A stretch of 64,000 nucleotides of DNA from Candidatus Zixiibacteriota bacterium (GTDB lineage: Bacteria > Zixibacteria > MSB-5A5 > DSPP01). The notes under the pieces were generated by a model, which saw nothing but the letters and a program-made list of their open reading frames with translations, was not told the DNA's origin and made no database searches. How positions within the stretch are numbered: position 1 is the first letter of the stretch; each line of letters begins with the position of its first letter. The DNA is taken from positions 5,118-69,117 of the forward strand of contig JAKEHY010000009.1 in NCBI GenBank assembly GCA_022614805.1, in the 5' to 3' direction. Shown in pieces: positions 2,512 to 18,682 of the stretch. Made by a program: the position numbers and the translations under genes.

Positions 2512-3858
2512 TCAACCTAAAATAACCCCTTCCGGTTCCCGCACCAAAGGATACCCCCGGCCGGAGCGCTGCCAGGCTTCCAGCACCTTTCCCGCCACGT
2601 AGTGCGAACCGGTGACGACCAAAAGCTCGTCCGCTCCAAGCAGGGCGTAGGCCTTCCAAAGGGCCCCGGCCGGGTCTTCAATAACTTCGTTGGGTACGGC
2701 GGCGCCAACGGCCTCGGCCAAAATCCCCGGTTCCAAGGCCCTTTTCGAATCCGGCCGGACGAAATAAAAGCGTTTGGCCAAAGGTTTCAGTGCCATCAAA
2801 AACCGATGGTAGTCCTTGTCGGCCAGGATGCCCAGAACGAAAACCGCCTTTCCCGGCCACAGCCGGCGCAGCGAGCCGGCCAGCCGGGCGGCCGCTGCGG
2901 CGTTGTGGGCCACGTCCAAAACCACGGGCGGTTCCTGCGAAATCATCTCCAGCCGGGCCGGCCATAAAACCGTGCGGGTTCCCGCTTCGCAAGCCGCCGG
3001 CGGTATGAAAAAACCGCGCTGGCGTAAATGCTCCACAGCGGCCAAGGCCACCGACAGGTTTTCCCCCTGGTAACGCCCGGCCAGATTCAGAAAAAGCTCT
3101 CCGCTCGGACTGAAGGATTGGGAAACGTGGAAACGGTTTCCCCTCCAGTTCGCTTTCAAAAGCTTGACCGGCGCCGGCCCGGCAGCGACCGTCAGAGGTG
3201 CGCTTAGCTTTTGGGCCGTTTCGGCGACCGTCCGGAAGGCCCCGCTTTTCAAGTTTCCCACAACCATCGGCCTTCCCGGTTTTATAATCCCCGCTTTTTC
3301 GGTTGCAATTTTGGTCAAACTTTTTCCCAGCCGGTCGGTATGGTCTTTATCGACGTTGGTTATCACCGAGAGAACCGGACAAACGACGTTGGTGGCATCC
3401 AGCCGGCCACCGAGGCCGGTTTCGACGACGGCAATATCCACTTTCTGTTCGGCGAAATATTGAAAGGCCAACGCCGTTGTCGCTTCAAAAAAGGTGGCTT
3501 TGAGGCTTTCAATTTCGGGGCGAAGGCGGCCGACGAAATCTTCTATAAAATCATCCGGAACTTCCTGGCGGTTCACCCGCACCCGTTCGTTGAACCGAAC
3601 CAGATGGGGGGAGGTGTACAGCCCCACGCGGCAGCCGGAGGCTAGGAGAATCGACTCCAGTATGGCCGCCGTCGAGCCCTTTCCGTTGGTGCCAGCGATG
3701 TGGACGACCGGGTACCGGCTCTGGGGATTGCCGAGAAAAAGGCAAAGGGTGCGGATATTTTCCAGCCCCAGCTTGACGCCGAAAAGCTCCAAGTCGTAAA
3801 GGTATTGTATCGCGCTTGAAGATGACGTTTCCGATTTCACAGAAGGTTCAGAGCTCAA
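2512..3858 (-). CDS. folC: bifunctional folylpolyglutamate synthase / dihydrofolate synthase (Mur ligase family)
   Basis: 448 aa with the HIAGTNGKGST P-loop and Mur-ligase middle and C-terminal domains. Confidence 0.88.
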   Translation of the reverse strand: MSSEPSVKSETSSSSAIQYLYDLELFGVKLGLENIRTLCLFLGNPQSRYPVVHIAGTNGKGSTAAILESILLASGCRVGLYTSPHLVRFNERVRVNRQEVPDDFIEDFVGRLRPEIESLKATFFEATTALAFQYFAEQKVDIAVVETGLGGRLDATNVVCPVLSVITNVDKDHTDRLGKSLTKIATEKAGIIKPGRPMVVGNLKSGAFRTVAETAQKLSAPLTVAAGPAPVKLLKANWRGNRFHVSQSFSPSGELFLNLAGRYQGENLSVALAAVEHLRQRGFFIPPAACEAGTRTVLWPARLEMISQEPPVVLDVAHNAAAAARLAGSLRRLWPGKAVFVLGILADKDYHRFLMALKPLAKRFYFVRPDSKRALEPGILAEAVGAAVPNEVIEDPAGALWKAYALLGADELLVVTGSHYVAGKVLEAWQRSGRGYPLVREPEGVILG

Positions 3859-3862
3859 AAAT

Positions 3863-4720
3863 TCACGCCCGGGGACTTCCGTTCCCGCTGAAATACTCCA
3901 GAAGCAGGTTAATCGTCCGACGCAGTTCCTTCCTTTCGCAAATCATATCCACGAAGCCGTGTTCCAGGAAAAACTCCGAACTCTGGAAACCGGGCGGCAG
4001 CTCCTGGCCGATGGTCTGGGCAATCACCCGCGGCCCGGCAAAGCCCAGAAGCGCCTTCGGCTCGGCGATAATCACGTCCCCCAACGAGGCGTAGGAGGCC
4101 ATCACGCCGGCGGTGGTCGGGTTGGTCAAAACGCTGATAAAAGGAAGATTTTTCTTTTGCAGCTGGGCCAGAAGCGCGGAGGTTTTGGCCATTTGCATCA
4201 GGGAAAGAATCCCTTCCTGCATCCGCGCCCCGCCGGAGCAGGAAACGATAATCAGAGGAATCTTGCGTTCCAGCGCACGCTCGATGGCGCGGGCGATTTT
4301 TTCCCCCACCACCGAACCCATACTGCCTCCGATGAAGGAAAAATCCATCACCGCAACCGAGACCGCCCGCCCCCCGATTTTACCCGTGCCGCAGACGACG
4401 GCGTCCGTCAAACTCGTTTTCTTGCGCGCCTCGCGGATGCGGTCGGGATAGCGCTTGGAGTCCTTGAAACGGAGAGGGTCGGCGGAGGTGATGTTCCGGT
4501 CGTATTCCTTCCACGTGTCCGGGTCTGTCAAAAGCTCGAGATAGTCGCTGAAGCGGATGCGGAAATGATAGTTGCACTTGGGGCAGACCCACCGGTTTTT
4601 TTCCAGTTCGCGGACGAAAATGATTTCCCCGCAGGACTCGCATTTGGTCCAGAGTCCCTTGGGAATCTCTTTTTTCTCGCCGCCGGCAACCCCCTCGCGG
4701 TTTTTTTTGAACCACTCCAT
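3863..4720 (-). CDS. accD: acetyl-CoA carboxylase carboxyltransferase subunit beta
   Basis: N-terminal C4 zinc ribbon (CESCGEIIF...CPKCNYHFR) followed by the carboxyltransferase domain. The start was trimmed to the internal ATG (MEWFKKN...) at 4720. That places the rimI stop (4722) immediately upstream; the track's 4903 start is a GC-rich extension that overlaps rimI. Confidence 0.88.
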   Translation of the reverse strand: MEWFKKNREGVAGGEKKEIPKGLWTKCESCGEIIFVRELEKNRWVCPKCNYHFRIRFSDYLELLTDPDTWKEYDRNITSADPLRFKDSKRYPDRIREARKKTSLTDAVVCGTGKIGGRAVSVAVMDFSFIGGSMGSVVGEKIARAIERALERKIPLIIVSCSGGARMQEGILSLMQMAKTSALLAQLQKKNLPFISVLTNPTTAGVMASYASLGDVIIAEPKALLGFAGPRVIAQTIGQELPPGFQSSEFFLEHGFVDMICERKELRRTINLLLEYFSGNGSPRA

Positions 4721-14575: not shown

Positions 14576-15969
14576 ACCAGTCCTGCCGTTTCCAGTTTCC
14601 TCTCCGGCGCTATTCCGCTACCGGCCTTGGGGCGAAAAAAACTCATCCCCTCCGCCAGAGCTTCAATGTCCGCCCGCAGCTTCTTTTCCGTCACCGCAAT
14701 CAAAAGCTGGTTTTTCCTTTTCCGGTCGTATTTTCCCAAATCGATACCGGGAACGATGTTCGTTTTTCGCAAGCGGGAGGCGACCCTCGAAGCGGGCACG
14801 GGCAGCTCGAGGGCAAACTCTTTAAAAAACGGGGCCGCATAGACCCGCCTGAATCCCTTTGCCTCCAGCAGCGCGGCCGTGTAATGGGCTTTGGCGTAGG
14901 AAAGCCGGGCCATCTGCAAAAGCCCCTCCTTGCCGACCAGGGACATAAATACGGTCGAAAGCGTTGCCATCAAACCCTGGTTGGTGCAGATGTTGGAGGT
15001 CGCCTTTTCCCGGCGGATATGCTGCTCCCGCGTCTGCAAGGTCAAAACGTAACCGATTTTACCGGTAACGTCTGTCGTCCGGGCCGCAATCCGACCCGGC
15101 ATCCGGCGCACCAGTTCCTTTTTGGCGGCAAAAAGCCCCACCGCCGGCCCGCCGTAGGAAATCGGAACGCCCAAAGATTGCCCCTCCGCCACGGCGATAT
15201 CGGCGTTGTATTCGCCGGGGGGAGAAACCATTCCGAGCGAGATGGGGTCAAAAACGGCGACCAATTTGGCGCCGACGGCGTGAACAATCGATTCCAGTTC
15301 CTTCGCCTCCTCGAGGCAGCCGAAAAAGTTGGGCGTTTGCAAAACCAAAGCGGCGGTTTTATTGGAGATATTTTTCTTGAGCGCCTCCGGCTCTACTTGT
15401 CCCGAAGGTCCGAGCGGCAACGAACGAAGCTGATACGCTCCGCCGGTGCCGTAGGTTTTGAGAACCTTCAGGTAGTTCGGATTCAGCCCTTCCGTCACCA
15501 AAACCTCTTTGCGTTCGGTGATATGCGCCGTCATCAGGGCCGCCTCGGCCACCGCAGAAGCGCCGTCGTACATCGAGGCGTTGGCCGCCTCCATTTTGGT
15601 CAGGGCAGAGATGAGGGACTGAAATTCGTAGATGACCTGCAGCGTCCCCTGCGAAACTTCCGCTTGATACGGGGTGTAGGAGGTCAAAAACTCCGGCCGG
15701 CGGATGATGAAATCGGCTGCCGCCGGGGTGAAATGGTCGTAAAACCCCCCTCCGAGAAAGGAATTGGCGACAGAAACGGGGATATTCTGACGGGAAAGCT
15801 TGCGCAAATCGGCGAAGAGCTCTAATTCGGAGGCCGGCGGCGGAATTTTGAGCGGTTCTTTTAACCGGATTTCATTCGGGACGGCATCCAAAAGGTCTTC
15901 GAAGCGGGAAACGCCGATGGCGGCCAGCATTTTTTTCCGGTCGGCATCCGTATTCGGCACGTAGCTCAT
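14572..15969 (-). CDS. gcvPA: glycine dehydrogenase (decarboxylating) subunit 1
   Basis: 465 aa. N-terminus MSYVPNTDADRKKMLAAIG is typical of GcvPA. ATGA overlap with gcvPB. Confidence 0.92.
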   Translation of the reverse strand: MSYVPNTDADRKKMLAAIGVSRFEDLLDAVPNEIRLKEPLKIPPPASELELFADLRKLSRQNIPVSVANSFLGGGFYDHFTPAAADFIIRRPEFLTSYTPYQAEVSQGTLQVIYEFQSLISALTKMEAANASMYDGASAVAEAALMTAHITERKEVLVTEGLNPNYLKVLKTYGTGGAYQLRSLPLGPSGQVEPEALKKNISNKTAALVLQTPNFFGCLEEAKELESIVHAVGAKLVAVFDPISLGMVSPPGEYNADIAVAEGQSLGVPISYGGPAVGLFAAKKELVRRMPGRIAARTTDVTGKIGYVLTLQTREQHIRREKATSNICTNQGLMATLSTVFMSLVGKEGLLQMARLSYAKAHYTAALLEAKGFRRVYAAPFFKEFALELPVPASRVASRLRKTNIVPGIDLGKYDRKRKNQLLIAVTEKKLRADIEALAEGMSFFRPKAGSGIAPERKLETAGLV

Positions 15970-16140
15970 AGCGTTCCGAACTTATCTTTTTTGGATGGCA
16001 AAGTCAACCGCCGGTGTAAAAACGGCCCCAGACGCGTTGTTAACCCGGACTTGATGCAGGTGCAAAGAAAATGGTCTCGCGAAAACGGGGCTTTAGTTTT
16101 TTTAACGAATCAATGATTCAATGACTCAATGAATAAATCG

Positions 16141-16521
16141 TTATGCTGTCACCATCTCCTTATATTTCTCCGCCGTCAAAAGCGAATCCAGTTCCTTTGG
16201 ATTCTTCACTTTTATTTTTATGAGCCACCCTTCGCCATACGGGTCTTTGTTGATGACCGTGGCGTCCGATTCCAAAGCGGAATTGGCCGCCACTATCTCT
16301 CCGGAAATCGGCGAGAAAAGTTCGGAGACCGCCTTTACCGCCTCAATGGTGCCGAACGGCTTCATCTGGGCCACGGCGGTGCCGGCTTTGGGCAGCTCGA
16401 CGAAAACGATGTCCCCCAATTCCCCCTGGGCAAAGTCGGTGATGCCGACCGTGGCGGTGTCGCCATCCAGTTTAATCCATTCGTGCTCTTTGGTGTACTT
16501 CAAATCTGGTTTTATTTCCAC
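16141..16521 (-). CDS. gcvH: glycine cleavage system H protein
   Basis: 126 aa with the lipoyl-lysine motif (VELPKAGTAVAQMKPFGTIEAVK) and a GTG start preceded by GGAGG. Confidence 0.92.
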   Translation of the reverse strand: MEIKPDLKYTKEHEWIKLDGDTATVGITDFAQGELGDIVFVELPKAGTAVAQMKPFGTIEAVKAVSELFSPISGEIVAANSALESDATVINKDPYGEGWLIKIKVKNPKELDSLLTAEKYKEMVTA

Positions 16522-16564
16522 GTTTCCTCCGATTACAATTTTGAGATTTCTATTCTAACAAAAC

Positions 16565-16793
16565 GGGCTGAATATATTCAGCCCCTACGAAAAATCCAAA
16601 AGGTGTAGGGGTTCAATATATTGAACCCTCCAGAATGGAGGTCTAAAGGCCTCCGCTACGCTGGTTGAAGCGGGCTGAATCCCTCGGCCCTGCTCGGAAC
16701 AAGTATATTCAGCCCCTACGAAAAATCCAAAAATTGCAGGGTTTCAATATGTTGAACCCTCCACCAAAATGGAGGTCAGAAGACCTCCGCTAC
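16565..16793. repeat. Two tandem copies (~95 and ~122 nt, 16565-16659 and 16672-16793) of a hairpin-dense element. Each copy has three perfect or near-perfect palindromes. Candidate structured RNA / regulatory element in the accC-gcvH intergenic region.
   Basis: Direct reading shows shared blocks: TATATTCAGCCCCTACGAAAAATCCAAAA (29/29 identical), TTCAATAT(A/G)TTGAACCCTCCA, and ATGGAGGTC...CCTCCGCTAC. Palindromes: GGGCTGAATATATTCAGCCC, GGGTTCAATATATTGAACCC, GGAGGTC-loop-GACCTCC. Copy 2 carries a 23-nt insertion inside the first palindrome's loop. Confidence 0.6.
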
Positions 16794-16831
16794 CCAAAAA
16801 CATTTCTTTTTCCCGCCCTACGACCTTCGCC

Positions 16832-18229
16832 CTATGAACTACGCCCCGCTTCCACCGGTTCCGCCGGTTTCTCCTTCGTTTTTTTTTCCTCGCCCAGCAT
16901 TTTCTCCACGAAAGATGTGTCGTAATTCAAGCTGACAAAATCCGGATGGGCCAGAACTTTTTTATGGAACGGAATGGTGGTGGCTATTCCTTCGATTACG
17001 AATTCGTCCAGCGCGCGCAACAGTTTCCCGATGGCCTGTTCCCGCGTTCGGCCGAAGCCGATCAGCTTGGCAATCATCGAATCGTAGTGCGGCGGCACGT
17101 CATAGAGGGCGAACGCATGGGTATCCACGCGGATGCCGTGCCCGCCGGGTACGTGAAAGTAGGTTATTTTCCCCGGGGAGGGGGCAAAATCCCTTTCCGG
17201 GTCTTCGGCGTTAATCCGGCACTCGATGGAATGCCCCCGAAGTTCCACATCGGCCTGCTTGATGGAGAGTTCTTCTCCGGCGGCGATTAGAATCTGTTCC
17301 TTGACCAAATCCAAATCCACCACTTCCTCGGTGACCGGGTGTTCCACCTGAATGCGGGTGTTCATTTCCATAAAGTAGAAGTTCTTGTTTTTATCGAAAA
17401 GAAATTCCAACGTCCCGGCCGAACGGTAGCCGATTTTCCAGGCCCCCAAAACCGCCGATTCGCACAGCTTTTTCCGGGTTTCGTCATCCAAGAAGGGACA
17501 CGGGGCTTCTTCTATCAATTTTTGATGGCGGCGCTGCACCGTGCAGTCCCGTTCCCCCAAATGGACGATATTCCCCAGATGGTCGGCCAAAACCTGCACC
17601 TCCACGTGGCGCGGGTTCTCGACGAATTTTTCGAGATACAGAGCATCGTTGCCGAAGGCCGCTTTTGCTTCCGCTTTGGCCATATCCCAGACCGCTTCCA
17701 GTTCTTTTTCATCCCGTGCCAGCCGCATCCCCCGCCCCCCGCCGCCGGCCGCCGCTTTTACGATGACCGGAAAGCCAAAACTTTTGGCCAGACCCATCGC
17801 TTTCGACAAGTCCGCCACTTCCCCCTCCGAACCGGAAATGATGGGCAACCCCGCTTCCGCCATTATTTTTTTGGCGAAAATTTTGTCCCCCATTTGCCGG
17901 ATTTGCTGGGCTGTGGGGCCAATGAACTGGATGTTGCAGGACTCGCAGATTTCGGCAAAATCGGCGTTTTCCGCCAGAAAGCCGTAACCGGGATGGATGG
18001 CATCGGCGTTGGTCAACTCGGCGGCGGCAATGATGCGCTTGGGGTCGAGATAGCTTTCTGCGGCCTTGGGGGGGCCGATACAAAGCGACTCGTCCGCGAA
18101 GCGCACGGCCAGCGAATCTTTGTCCGCTTCGGAAAAGACCGCCACGGACTTGATGCCCAACTCCCGGCAGGCTCGGATGATTCTAAGCGCTATTTCCCCC
18201 CGGTTGGCGATGAGGATTTTCTTGAACAT
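16832..18229 (-). CDS. accC: acetyl-CoA carboxylase biotin carboxylase subunit
   Basis: N-terminus [20 protein letters not shown] and ATP-grasp motifs. Start trimmed to the ATG at 18229. No accB is present upstream. Confidence 0.9.
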
Positions 18230-18682
18230 CCGATGCAAAATAACACAATTGCCCGATTTTCGCCAATTTTTGAGGCTGACCAAAAATTTTTCAGTCGACC
18301 TGCCCAGTCAAGCAGTTAGAAAACCCCGGTGCCTTCCTTAAACTTGACCGATTAGCTCGTCAATCCAGTTTCCCTATCACAAGTTGCCTGTCGTATAAGT
18401 TGTTTTGCATCAATGGGTTGTAAGGGTAAAACGGCAATGTGCCTGTAGAGCCGTTAATTTGCACAAACAAAACTCCCCCCAACTCTCGTATAAGTATTGT
18501 TTTTGAATGAGTAAGGAGGGTGGTGTGGAGTTTTCCAGTGGAGGGGAAAGCTCGACCACCTAAGTATTTATAGTTTGGAAAGGAGGATTACCAGCGCCTG
18601 AAGCTGCCGGACGAATCCGGTGTCGCTCGAAAAGCATTGCCAGTCAAACCAGTTTAAGTCCTCTGTGCAAAGGAGGTAAAGT

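What the first reader, a model, noticed from the sequence alone, without database searches (positions are those of the whole stretch)
16565..16793. Tandemly duplicated, triple-hairpin element in the 310-bp accC-gcvH intergenic region: possible novel tandem-aptamer leader of the glycine-cleavage operon
Two adjacent copies, each built as hairpin A (GGGCTGAATAT|ATATTCAGCCC), a spacer, hairpin B (GGGTTCAATAT|ATATTGAACCC), a spacer, then hairpin C (GGAGGTC-loop-GACCTCC). A 29-nt block is identical between copies. Copy 2 has a 23-nt insertion confined to the loop of hairpin A, which conserves the stem as expected for a selected RNA structure. On the minus strand this is the 5' leader of gcvH-gcvPA-gcvPB. 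The proximal hairpin A is followed by GUUUUGUU about 40 nt before the gcvH RBS, which is terminator/anti-terminator-like. Known glycine riboswitches are also tandem aptamers upstream of gcv genes, but I could not find their consensus (GGAGAG...ACCGAAGGGGCAA...CUCUCAGGCAAAAGGAC), so this is either a divergent or novel cis-regulator, a protein operator pair, or a REP/MITE-like repeat.
Basis: seen in the sequence. Interest (0 to 1): 0.68.

Follow-up and report, generated by a model that had tools for sequence, protein, structure and literature searches.

The report
REP palindrome cluster between accC and gcvH
The tandem hairpins upstream of gcvH are a cluster of GTAG-tagged repetitive extragenic palindromes, a known kind of small selfish DNA repeat that comes and goes between close relatives, and not a glycine-sensing RNA leader.

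Summary
Window 16565-16793 holds two tandem copies of a three-hairpin unit, far above chance.

The riboswitch reading does not hold:
- Rfam finds nothing, and no glycine riboswitch.
- Hairpins A and B each carry the unpaired GTAG tetranucleotide that defines GTAG-tagged REP elements. They sit as an inverted "tail-to-tail" dimer.
- The same 24-nt tag plus palindrome occurs at 118 or more loci (the scan was cut at its limit) in about 25 phyla. At least 7 are unrelated intergenic loci in three other Zixibacteria genomes. None lies near gcv or acc genes.
- 123 of 125 sites keep the stem complementary across four stem variants. 14% lie in long ORFs, against 80% of random positions.
- RayT-type Y1 transposase genes carry the same palindrome in frame, as published for TnpA_REP subclass 2.4.
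- Relatives with GcvH 83-96% identical and the same gene order show at least five states of this spacer, from two units to none.

Hairpin C was found only at this locus. It is probably accC's own 3' hairpin, copied along with the REP dimer.

The likely local effect is inferred from E. coli REP work: partial termination and protection of the upstream mRNA between accC and gcvH.

This is a new member of a known kind, and interest is low.

The parts
16565..16588 (-). REP A1: GTAG tag (16585-16588, read on the minus strand) plus the perfect 20-nt palindrome GGGCTGAATATATTCAGCCC. On the minus strand it is followed by GTTTTGTT.
   Evidence: GTAG plus a 10-bp stem. As RNA the hairpin folds at -13.6 kcal/mol. 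The consensus scan calls it terminator-like. The identical 24-mer occurs at unrelated loci in other Zixibacteria.
16589..16604 (.). 16-nt spacer of the tail-to-tail (tags inward) REP dimer A1-B1.
   Evidence: inverted repeat I1: 24-nt arms, 83% complementary, 16 nt between them.
16605..16628 (+). REP B1: GTAG tag (16605-16608, plus strand) plus the perfect 20-nt palindrome GGGTTCAATATATTGAACCC. It is in the opposite orientation to A1.
   Evidence: It folds at -12.2 kcal/mol. It differs from A at two stem pairs, and both differences are compensated.
16637..16659 (-). Hairpin C1: GTAG-C followed by GGAGGCC-TTTA-GACCTCC, with one A-C mismatch on the minus strand.
   Evidence: -8.2 kcal/mol. This hairpin type was found only at accC-gcvH loci.
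16565..16671 (.). 107-nt segment (A1, B1, C1 and a linker) that the closest relative L127 lacks. It is bounded by the direct repeat TTCAGCCCG (minus strand), so the boundary can be shifted by up to 9 nt.
   Evidence: direct repeat D3 (spacing 107). comparison of the window with L127.
16672..16719 (-). REP A2: the same palindrome, split by a 24-nt insert, plus its tag (CTAC on the plus strand, 16716-16719).
   Evidence: It folds at -23.9 kcal/mol with the insert. It is orthologous to the single unit of L127.
16680..16703 (.). Insert X (minus strand: CTTGTTCCGAGCAGGGCCGAGGGA), a copy of a second small dispersed motif.
   Evidence: L005 has a homologous 24-mer at another position, inside hairpin C. 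Similar motifs lie in other Zixibacteria intergenic regions, in L018 and twice in L020.
16736..16759 (+). REP B2: a decayed copy (GGTTTCAATATGTTGAACCC) with a degenerate GCAG tag.
   Evidence: It folds at -9.3 kcal/mol.
16771..16793 (-). Hairpin C2: GTAG-C followed by GGAGGTC-TTCT-GACCTCC, then ATTTTGG. It lies about 40 nt after the accC stop and is probably accC's native 3' hairpin.
   Evidence: -13.7 kcal/mol. It is conserved at the same position in L127, L003 and L128, and in disrupted form in L005.
16832..18283 (-). accC (biotin carboxylase), the upstream gene.
   Evidence: NF006367, 727 bits.
16141..16521 (-). gcvH, the downstream gene.
   Evidence: NF002270, 177 bits; 100% identical to a Zixibacteria MAG protein.

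Best explanation
The element is a small cluster of GTAG-tagged repetitive extragenic palindromes (REPs). It resembles an E. coli BIME and sits in the accC-gcvH spacer of a Zixibacteria genome.

Anatomy. Hairpins A and B are two stem variants of one REP family: GTAG followed by GGG[CT]T[CG]AAT..ATT[CG]A[AG]CCC. They are placed in inverted orientation with the tags inward and 16 nt between them. That makes a 'tail-to-tail' dimer which can also fold as one long hairpin, like a REPIN. Hairpin C is most likely accC's own 3' hairpin. The C-B-A block was then repeated in tandem together with a piece of flanking DNA, giving two units. One REP later received a 24-nt copy of another small repeat in its loop.

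Spread (inferred at family level). REPs of this kind are non-autonomous elements. A RayT/TnpA_REP HUH-Y1 transposase acts on them in trans, recognising the single-stranded DNA hairpin and its GTAG tag. Clusters grow and shrink by recombination or slippage between repeated arms.

Local effect (inferred from E. coli). When RNA polymerase reads from accC towards gcvH, the stable hairpins probably act as partial terminators and as barriers to 3' exonucleases. A1 followed by GUUUUGUU and C2 followed by AUUUUGG are the most terminator-like. The expected result is expression biased towards accC and away from gcvH. No ligand sensing is involved.
For: Tag and palindrome:
- A1, B1 and A2 have GTAG directly next to an 8-10 bp stem. 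C1 and C2 have GTAG one base away. These are the only GTAG-plus-hairpin sites above chance in the 64-kb window.
- The features match the definition in Di Nocera et al. 2013: stems of 6-13 bp, short loops, and an unpaired GTAG at one end. [quoted passage not shown] They lie mostly after the 3' end of the upstream ORF between genes of the same direction (PMC3733652).

Dispersal:
- The pattern GTAGGGGYTSAATNNATTSARCCC should match about once by chance in 596 Gb (my own estimate). It hit at least 118 stretches, and the scan stopped at its limit.
- Many genomes have several copies. One Thermodesulfobacteriota MAG has them on at least 12 contigs.
- Zixibacteria B21T1B10 has 4 loci, B22T1B11 has 2 and B77T1B8 has 1. 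These are intergenic, mostly just after a gene end. In L062 the TAG of the tag is the stop codon of the listed ORF.

Structure is maintained:
- 123 of 125 sites keep both free stem positions complementary across four stem variants (chance 25%).
- 48 sites have a head-to-head partner and 14 a tail-to-tail partner.

Not linked to glycine cleavage:
- None of the 118 loci encodes GcvH, AccC or GcvP.
- 14% of sites lie in ORFs of 150 aa or more, against 80% of random positions.

Transposase link:
- L104 6174-6749 is a Y1 transposase (Pfam PF01797, 33 bits against a cut-off of 23). It gives a partial match to NCBIfam REP-associated tyrosine transposase. Its relatives are named RayT by JGI.
- It carries the palindrome in frame as VGVQYIEPL, between the HuH motif and the C-terminal half. 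So do L085 and L135.
- This is the published hallmark of TnpA_REP subclass 2.4, which is scattered over many phyla (PMC6006769).

Presence and absence at this locus, with gene order kept:
- Two units in the window.
- One unit in L127 (GcvH 96% identical).
- One unit with X elsewhere in L005 (90%).
- Hairpin C only in L003 and L128 (90-91%).
- Nothing in L007, L008 and L130 (87-90%).
- A decayed A remnant in L132 (83%).

Same dimer elsewhere: the same kind of A-B tail-to-tail dimer lies at two different non-gcv metagenome loci, L133 and L134.

Local effect:
- Terminator-like calls for A1 and C2 on the minus strand.
- Hairpin energies from -8 to -24 kcal/mol.
- REP325 in E. coli acts as a partial terminator and an upstream mRNA stabiliser within yjdMN (bioRxiv 10.64898/2026.03.23.713779).
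Against: - In the 64-kb window this is the only locus with these repeats. Copy number in this genome is unknown and may be low. I could not scan the rest of the MAG.
- No RayT gene is in the window. None of the named top hits of the RayT search is from Zixibacteria.
- Hairpin C has the GTAG tag only in the window and L127. It is GTAC in L003 and GCAG in L005 and L128. It was not seen outside this locus, so it may not be a REP at all.
- The A hairpin followed by GTTTTGT is kept in the window, L127 and L005. This could mean it has been recruited for a local function.
- The effect on transcription is inferred. No expression data exist for this organism.
Confidence: 0.9

Rival explanations
1. A novel tandem riboswitch or attenuator in the 5' leader of gcvH. 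It would sense glycine or another metabolite and switch between A/B hairpins and an A-B long hairpin.
For: - It lies upstream of gcvH, and known glycine riboswitches are tandem.
- A and B can pair with each other as an alternative structure (I1).
- A1 is followed by a U-rich tract about 40 nt before the ribosome-binding site.
- The minus strand folds better than shuffles (z -4.2).
Against: - Rfam gives no match, including RF00504.
- The element is absent from the same spacer in relatives with GcvH 87-90% identical. Among the closest relatives the number of units varies from none to two.
- The same sequences lie at many non-gcv loci in many phyla.
- The plus strand folds at least as well (z -5.3).
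- The hairpins are perfect palindromes with 2-4 nt loops and no internal loops or bulges to form a ligand pocket.
- Copy 2 is decaying.
Confidence: 0.02
2. A pair of operator arrays for a dimeric DNA-binding regulator, with 20-bp perfect palindromes as binding sites, controlling gcvH or accC.
For: A and B are perfect 20-bp palindromes with an AT-rich centre (TGAATATATTCA and TTCAATATATTGAA), typical of operator geometry.
Against: - A' keeps its stem arms but has 24 nt inserted at the centre. This would destroy a dimer-binding site yet keeps a hairpin.
- The sites are absent in close relatives that have the same genes.
- Identical sites lie after the 3' ends of unrelated genes and in about 25 phyla.
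- The changes between variants are compensatory, which preserves pairing rather than a fixed recognition sequence.
- The GTAG tags are unexplained by this model.
Confidence: 0.03
3. A MITE: a miniature element with terminal inverted repeats, moved by a DDE transposase. The 24-nt A and B arms would be its inverted ends.
For: - The arms are inverted, 24 nt long and 83% complementary.
- The element is present or absent among relatives.
- The same dimer type lies at other loci.
Against: - Only 16 nt lie between the arms, so the whole 'element' would be 64 nt.
- Each arm is itself a complete palindrome that also occurs alone as a singleton at most loci.
- The arms carry the GTAG tag, and the associated genes are Y1 (HUH) transposases, not DDE enzymes.
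- I saw no target-site duplication. The indel against L127 is bounded by part of the repeat itself, TTCAGCCCG.
Confidence: 0.04

Closest known systems
GTAG-tagged REP superfamily (Di Nocera, De Gregorio & Rocco 2013, BMC Genomics 14:522, PMC3733652)
   Same: - Short palindrome with a 8-10 bp stem and a 2-4 nt loop.
- Unpaired GTAG at one end.
- Stem variants with compensatory changes.
- Singletons, head-to-head and tail-to-tail dimers, trimers, and clusters repeated in tandem with flanking DNA.
- Location after the 3' end of the upstream gene, between genes of the same direction.
- The TAG of the tag is used as a stop codon at some loci.
- In-frame copies occur inside genes.
   Different: - The sequence GGG[CT]T[CG]AAT..ATT[CG]A[AG]CCC was not found by text search in that paper or in the paper library. 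The paper's figures could not be read.
- Zixibacteria were not sampled in that paper.
- Copy number in this genome appears low: one locus in 64 kb.
- The same 24-mer pattern recurs in about 25 phyla, whereas most described REP families are lineage-specific.
REPs cognate to TnpA_REP (RAYT) subclass 2.4 (Quentin, Siguier, Chandler & Fichant 2018, BMC Genomics 19:475, PMC6006769)
   Same: - The subclass is scattered over many phyla.
- REP copies are inserted in frame inside the tnpA_REP gene, after the HuH motif. L104, L085 and L135 show exactly this with the same palindrome as the window.
   Different: - No tnpA_REP gene was found in the window or in the Zixibacteria loci held.
- I did not assign L104 to subclass 2.4 by phylogeny. 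The assignment rests on the in-frame REP hallmark only.
E. coli BIMEs and REP325 in yjdMN (Harris et al. 2026, bioRxiv 10.64898/2026.03.23.713779); malE-malF REPs (from my own knowledge)
   Same: A cluster of REPs in alternating orientation between two genes of the same direction. The expected effect is partial termination plus protection of the upstream mRNA, giving upstream-biased expression.
   Different: - The REP sequence is unrelated.
- No IHF or gyrase motifs were examined.
- The effect here is untested.
REPINs (Bertels & Rainey 2011, PLoS Genet 7:e1002132)
   Same: Two inverted REPs separated by a short spacer that can fold into one long hairpin. The same dimer type is seen at more than one locus (L133, L134).
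   Different: - REPINs are described as vertically inherited populations of tens to hundreds of copies with a single-copy RAYT.
- Here most family members in the Zixibacteria loci are singletons. Population size and RAYT are unknown for this genome.
Glycine riboswitch (Rfam RF00504)
   Same: Only the position upstream of a gcv gene and a two-unit tandem layout.
   Different: There is no match to the covariance model, no conserved aptamer core, no conservation among relatives, and no specificity for gcv genes.

Membership tests
GTAG-tagged REP superfamily | Short stem-loop palindrome (stem 6-13 bp, short loop) | tested here: met
   - A1 and B1 are perfect 20-nt palindromes with 8-10 bp stems.
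- C1 and C2 have 5-7 bp stems.
-.
GTAG-tagged REP superfamily | Unpaired GTAG (or a close variant) at one end of the palindrome | tested here: met
   - The tag is directly adjacent in A1, B1 and A2.
- It is one base away in C1 and C2.
- It has degenerated to GCAG in B2.
- These are the only such sites above chance in the window: 5 found, 3 of them here, against 0-4 in shuffles.
-.
GTAG-tagged REP superfamily | Many dispersed, mostly extragenic copies in the same genome | tested here: inconclusive
   - Own genome: only this locus in the 64 kb available.
- Same phylum: 4 loci in B21T1B10, 2 in B22T1B11 and 1 in B77T1B8. This used a strict exact pattern and a scan cut at its limit.
- Family-wide: 14% of sites in long ORFs against 80% of random positions.
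GTAG-tagged REP superfamily | Arranged as head-to-head or tail-to-tail dimers, trimers or tandem clusters | tested here: met
   - B-A is a tail-to-tail dimer with tags inward and a 16-nt spacer.
- The C-B-A trimer is repeated in tandem with a linker.
-.
- In the family, 48 sites have a head-to-head partner and 14 a tail-to-tail partner.
GTAG-tagged REP superfamily | Located between genes of the same or converging direction, near the 3' end of the upstream ORF | tested here: met
   accC and gcvH are both on the minus strand. The cluster begins about 40 nt after the accC stop.
GTAG-tagged REP superfamily / REPtron | A cognate RAYT/TnpA_REP (HUH-Y1) gene in the genome | not tested
   - No Y1 transposase is in the window (tblastn), and the rest of the MAG is not available.
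- At family level the link is met. L104, L085 and L135 are RayT-type genes carrying the same palindrome.
REPIN | Two inverted REPs that fold as one long hairpin and replicate as a unit | tested here: inconclusive
   - The long hairpin is possible (24-nt arms, 83% complementary).
- The same dimer type lies at two unrelated loci, L133 and L134.
- Most Zixibacteria copies seen are singletons.
Glycine riboswitch RF00504 | Match to the family covariance model | tested here: not met
   - No match at gathering score anywhere in the window.
- No RF00504 match at E<=10 in 16300-17000.
Glycine riboswitch or any cis-regulatory leader | Conserved upstream of the regulated gene in relatives | tested here: not met
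   - Absent in L007, L008 and L130.
- Only hairpin C is present in L003 and L128.
- One unit in L005 and L127.
-.
MITE | Terminal inverted repeats plus a target-site duplication | tested here: inconclusive
   - Inverted arms exist.
- Each arm is an autonomous palindrome also found alone.
- No target-site duplication was seen at the indel against L127.
- I made no systematic search for empty sites.
Intrinsic terminator | GC-rich hairpin followed by a U tract on the transcribed strand | tested here: met
   The consensus scan calls A1 (followed by GTTTTGTTAG) and C2 (followed by ATTTTGGTGG) on the minus strand. This is a sequence match only. Function cannot be tested here.

The most novel reading that the evidence does not exclude
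The A/B palindrome belongs to one REP lineage whose 24-nt tag-plus-stem pattern is kept almost unchanged across about 25 bacterial phylum-level groups. It also turns up on one small contig binned as Thaumarchaeota. It comes with RayT genes that carry the REP in frame.

If this reflects repeated horizontal spread of a RayT-REP system, it would contrast with the view of REPIN-RAYT systems as strictly vertically inherited. The alternative is an unusually strict recognition constraint.

The accC-gcvH spacer of these Zixibacteria would then offer a natural series of none, one and two units for measuring what a REP cluster does to a gene pair. A weaker variant is that hairpin A followed by GUUUUGU, kept in three relatives, has been recruited as the terminator that uncouples gcvH from accC.
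Probability: 0.25. Interest if true: 0.4.

Novelty: new member of a known kind. Interest (0 to 1): 0.12.

Why it matters
It removes a false lead. This is not a new glycine-responsive RNA, and scans should not count it as a riboswitch candidate.

It also gives a practical rule. Tandem perfect palindromes in a spacer should be checked for a flanking GTAG/CTAC tag before an RNA-regulator reading is entertained.

There is modest positive value:
- It documents GTAG-tagged REPs in Zixibacteria.
- It shows that one REP sequence type is shared across many uncultured phyla.
- The spacer exists in five or more states among close relatives, which could serve to test how REP clusters tune expression of neighbouring genes.

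Tried and rejected
1. Rfam at gathering score over the whole window and at E<=10 over 16300-17000 gave only noise (STnc390, ATPC, ROSE_2; all E>0.5) and was rejected.
2. Folding the whole spacer on both strands showed that both fold better than shuffles, so folding cannot tell an RNA from a DNA palindrome.
3. A sigma-70-type promoter scan of 16000-17000 and 15900-16160 found none. I could not place a gcvH promoter or confirm the promoter-like block before gcvPA.
4. I searched for further copies in the window with the palindrome pattern, the 25-nt block and a generic GTAG-plus-hairpin scan. None was found outside this locus.
5. tblastn for a RayT gene in the window and in all held loci found it only in L104, L085 and L119.
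6. A protein search with the L104 RayT gave thousands of relatives, many named RayT, but none of the named top 120 is from Zixibacteria. The question of a cognate transposase in this phylum stays open.
7. A text search of the paper library for the exact REP sequences gave only chance hits in unrelated papers.
8. I considered hairpin C as a third REP type. Outside the accC-gcvH locus it had one weak match (L106, a 3-nt loop, no GTAG tag). Its tag is not conserved in relatives, so I treat it as probably native to accC.
9. I considered a CRISPR array and rejected it. Nearly all family loci have one or two copies per 8 kb, with no regular spacers.
Full report
**1. The observation**

The sequence is as described. 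On the plus strand:
- A is GGGCTGAATATATTCAGCCC at 16565-16584.
- B is GGGTTCAATATATTGAACCC at 16609-16628.
- C is GGAGGTCTAAAGGCCTCC at 16637-16654.
- The second set is A' at 16672-16715, B' at 16740-16759 and C' at 16771-16788.

The two sets align in register as 60 nt at 92% identity and 33 nt at 85%. A 25-nt stretch of the shared block occurs exactly twice, where shuffles give none. The palindrome pattern matches only here, with 6 matches against 0.08 expected.

A' is the A palindrome with 24 nt inserted at its centre (16680-16703).

The flanking genes are accC (16832-18283, minus strand) and gcvH (16141-16521, minus strand). gcvPA and gcvPB follow. The organism is a Zixibacteria MAG. Two independent assemblies have an identical spacer, so this is not an assembly artefact.

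**2.

Each A and B palindrome is flanked on one side by GTAG. Read on the minus strand, the transcribed strand of both genes, one unit is:

[GTAG-C-GGAGGYC..GACCTCC] [GGGTTCAAT..ATTGAACCC-CTAC] 16 nt [GTAG-GGGCTGAAT..ATTCAGCCC]

A scan of the whole window for GT[AG]G followed by a perfect stem of 7 bp or more found five sites. Three are here, and shuffles give 0-4.

B and A are inverted copies with the tags facing inward. Together they form 24-nt arms that are 83% complementary (I1).

A and B differ at two stem pairs, and both differences are compensated.

The spacer folds better than shuffles on both strands (z -4.2 on minus, -5.3 on plus). That is what DNA palindromes give.

**3. Not a known RNA**

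Rfam has no match at gathering score anywhere in the 64 kb. At E<=10 in 16300-17000 there is only noise, and the glycine riboswitch does not appear.

**4. Relatives**

GcvH homologues 83-96% identical were located on contigs with the same accC-gcvH-gcvPA-gcvPB order. The accC-gcvH spacer exists in at least five states.

| Locus | GcvH identity | State of the spacer |
|---|---|---|
| Window | 100% | Two units |
| L127 | 96% | One unit, orthologous to the window's distal, decayed copy including the loop insert, followed directly by GTTTTGTAAGAATAG |
| L005, L006 | 90% | One unit with perfect A and B; the 24-nt insert sits in hairpin C instead |
| L003, L128 | 90-91% | Hairpin C only |
| L007, L008, L130 | 87-90% | None of the three hairpins (119-nt spacer) |
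| L132 | 83% | Decayed A remnant without a tag |

Against L127, the window has an extra 107 nt bounded by the direct repeat TTCAGCCCG. This fits gain or loss by recombination or slippage between repeated arms.

A regulator of gcvH would be conserved. This element is not.

**5. Dispersal**

I searched one genome per species (596 Gb) for GTAGGGGYTSAATNNATTSARCCC. By my own estimate this pattern should match about once by chance. It matched at least 118 stretches, and the scan stopped at its limit.

Hits come from about 25 phylum-level groups. Several genomes have many copies; one Thermodesulfobacteriota MAG has them on at least 12 contigs.

Three other Zixibacteria genomes carry the exact A-type sequence at seven unrelated loci: L018, L025, L062, L109, L020, L066 and L040. 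All are intergenic, and most lie just after a gene end. In L062 the TAG of the tag is the stop codon of the listed ORF.

Over 125 distinct sites:
- 123 keep both unconstrained stem positions complementary, across all four stem variants. Chance would give 25%.
- 48 have an inverted partner with tags outward and 14 have one with tags inward.
- Only 14% lie inside ORFs of 150 aa or more, against 80% of random positions in the same loci.
- None of the loci encodes GcvH, AccC or GcvP.

A metagenome scan for the A-B inward-tag dimer found the same dimer type, with an identical 13-nt spacer, at two different non-gcv loci (L133, L134). A third copy lies inside a transposase gene (L135).

**6. Link to a transposase**

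Several doubly tagged copies lie in frame inside small genes. L104 6174-6749 (191 aa) reads ...VVMPNHVHGIIGINP-VGVQYIEPL-PNRYQHIIPGSVGSIIRSFKSAVT...
- It passes the Pfam Y1_Tnp cut-off.
- It gives a partial match to the NCBIfam REP-associated tyrosine transposase model, below that model's cut-off.
- It has thousands of relatives, many named 'REP element-mobilizing transposase RayT' by JGI.

L085 and L135 are built the same way.

Quentin et al. 2018 describe exactly this for TnpA_REP subclass 2.4. [quoted passage not shown]

No such gene is in the window.

**7. Comparison with what is known**

Di Nocera et al. 2013 (PMC3733652) define the GTAG-tagged REP superfamily by these features:
- a 6-13 bp stem, a short loop and an unpaired GTAG at one end;
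- a preference for spacers between genes of the same or converging direction, close to the 3' end of the upstream ORF;
- use of the tag's TAG as a stop codon;
- occasional in-frame copies inside genes.

Every feature that could be tested is met here. Two could not be settled: copy number in this very genome, and the presence of a cognate RayT. The rest of the MAG is not available to me.

The exact REP sequence was not found by text search in that paper or in the paper library.

**8. Hairpin C and insert X**

Hairpin C occurs at the same place, about 40 nt after the accC stop, in the window, L127, L003 and L128. In L005 it is present but disrupted. Outside this locus the scan gave one weak match (L106, a 3-nt loop, no GTAG tag), which I treat as chance. 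Its tag is GTAG only in the window and L127. I read it as accC's own 3' hairpin, duplicated together with the REP dimer.

Insert X (CTTGTTCCGAGCAGGGCCGAGGGA on the minus strand) resembles motifs next to REPs in other Zixibacteria spacers, in L018 and twice in L020. It sits in different hairpins in the window and L127 compared with L005. It therefore belongs to a second small dispersed repeat. It is not evidence of selection on an RNA stem.

**9. How it most likely works**

Shown:
- It is a polymorphic cluster of GTAG-tagged palindromes of a widely dispersed family.
- The family's stems are maintained by compensatory change.
- RayT-type genes carry the same palindrome.

Inferred from the literature on RAYT/TnpA_REP:
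- Copies spread through a HUH-Y1 enzyme that acts on the single-stranded hairpin and its tag.
- Clusters expand and contract by recombination between arms.

Inferred for the local effect:
- The hairpins are stable as RNA (-8 to -24 kcal/mol).
- A1 followed by GUUUUGUU and C2 followed by AUUUUGG match a terminator consensus on the minus strand.
- In E. coli the REP325 cluster limits readthrough into the downstream gene and stabilises the upstream mRNA.
- The most likely consequence here is therefore expression biased towards accC relative to gcvH, with no ligand involved.

No promoter for gcvH could be placed.

In relatives the gcvH-gcvPA spacer has a strong terminator-type hairpin and a block conserved in all of them. 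So gcvH is probably not the first gene of a gcvH-PA-PB operon.

**10. Verdict**

The headline interpretation is rejected. This is a new member of a known kind.

The only mildly unusual aspect is how widely this one REP sequence type is shared among uncultured phyla.

Noticed in passing
window 15970-16140 (gcvH-gcvPA spacer); also L003, L005, L007, L127, L128, L130, L132: - In relatives, gcvH is followed by a strong terminator-type hairpin (for example GCCCCGCGCAAGCGGGGCTTTTTT).
- A block conserved in all eight loci then follows (GGTTGACTTTG...AAAAAGATAAGTTC), just before gcvPA. It looks like a separate gcvPA promoter, although the consensus scan did not call it.
- In the window the hairpin is degraded on the minus strand. 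It pairs better on the plus strand (16073-16092).
   Followed up: partly
window 16110-16132: A short tandem repeat lies right after the gcvH stop (period 8, unit TCAATGAC, 2.9 copies; CATTGA-type units on the minus strand). The number of units differs among relatives; L005 has more. The gcvH-gcvPA spacer ranges from 108 to 204 nt.
   Followed up: partly
window 16680-16703; L005 about 3848-3871; L018 about 5566; L020 about 1086 and 2621: A second small dispersed motif (consensus roughly CTTGTCCYGAGCGNAGYCGARGG) sits inside a REP loop in the window and L127, inside hairpin C in L005, and beside REPs in other Zixibacteria spacers. How a 24-nt piece lands in hairpins is unexplained.
   Followed up: partly
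L104 6174-6749; L085 about 1500-2023; L135 about 400-740; L055 138-1856; L126 near 2744; L125 near 1179: The doubly tagged palindrome GTAGGGG[CT]TCAATATATTGA[AG]CCCCTAC is translated in frame as VG[AV]QYIEPL inside RayT-type Y1 transposase genes (L104, L085, L135). It is also in frame in an unrelated 572-aa protein (L055). In L125 and L126 it lies within long ORFs of 461 and 1256 aa.
   Followed up: partly
L009-L126 (genome-contig hits): The same 24-nt REP pattern occurs in about 25 phylum-level groups, from Bacillota to Patescibacteria. One hit is on a 2.5-kb contig binned as Thaumarchaeota (L067). That contig comes from the same study as the Zixibacteria bins and may be mis-binned. REP families are usually lineage-specific.
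   Followed up: partly
L042 about 3106-3170; L113 4141-4270: The REP forms local tandem arrays.
- L042 repeats the right half plus tag (GATATATTGAACCCCTAC) several times.
- L113 repeats a 62-nt unit that contains the whole REP.
   Followed up: no
window 16814-16846: A 14-nt direct repeat (CGCCCTACGAACTA, 2.4 copies) overlaps the accC stop codon. It is partly conserved in L003, L005 and L127 (TAGTTCATAGGKCGAAGGTCGTAGGGCG on the minus strand).
   Followed up: no
window 18683-20833 (+) and its counterparts in L001: A 716-aa ORF next to accC has no NCBIfam match, and the matching 716-aa gene in L001 has no precomputed Pfam hit. It sits beside a Por_Secre_tail protein and another 791-aa protein with no hit on record.
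   Followed up: no
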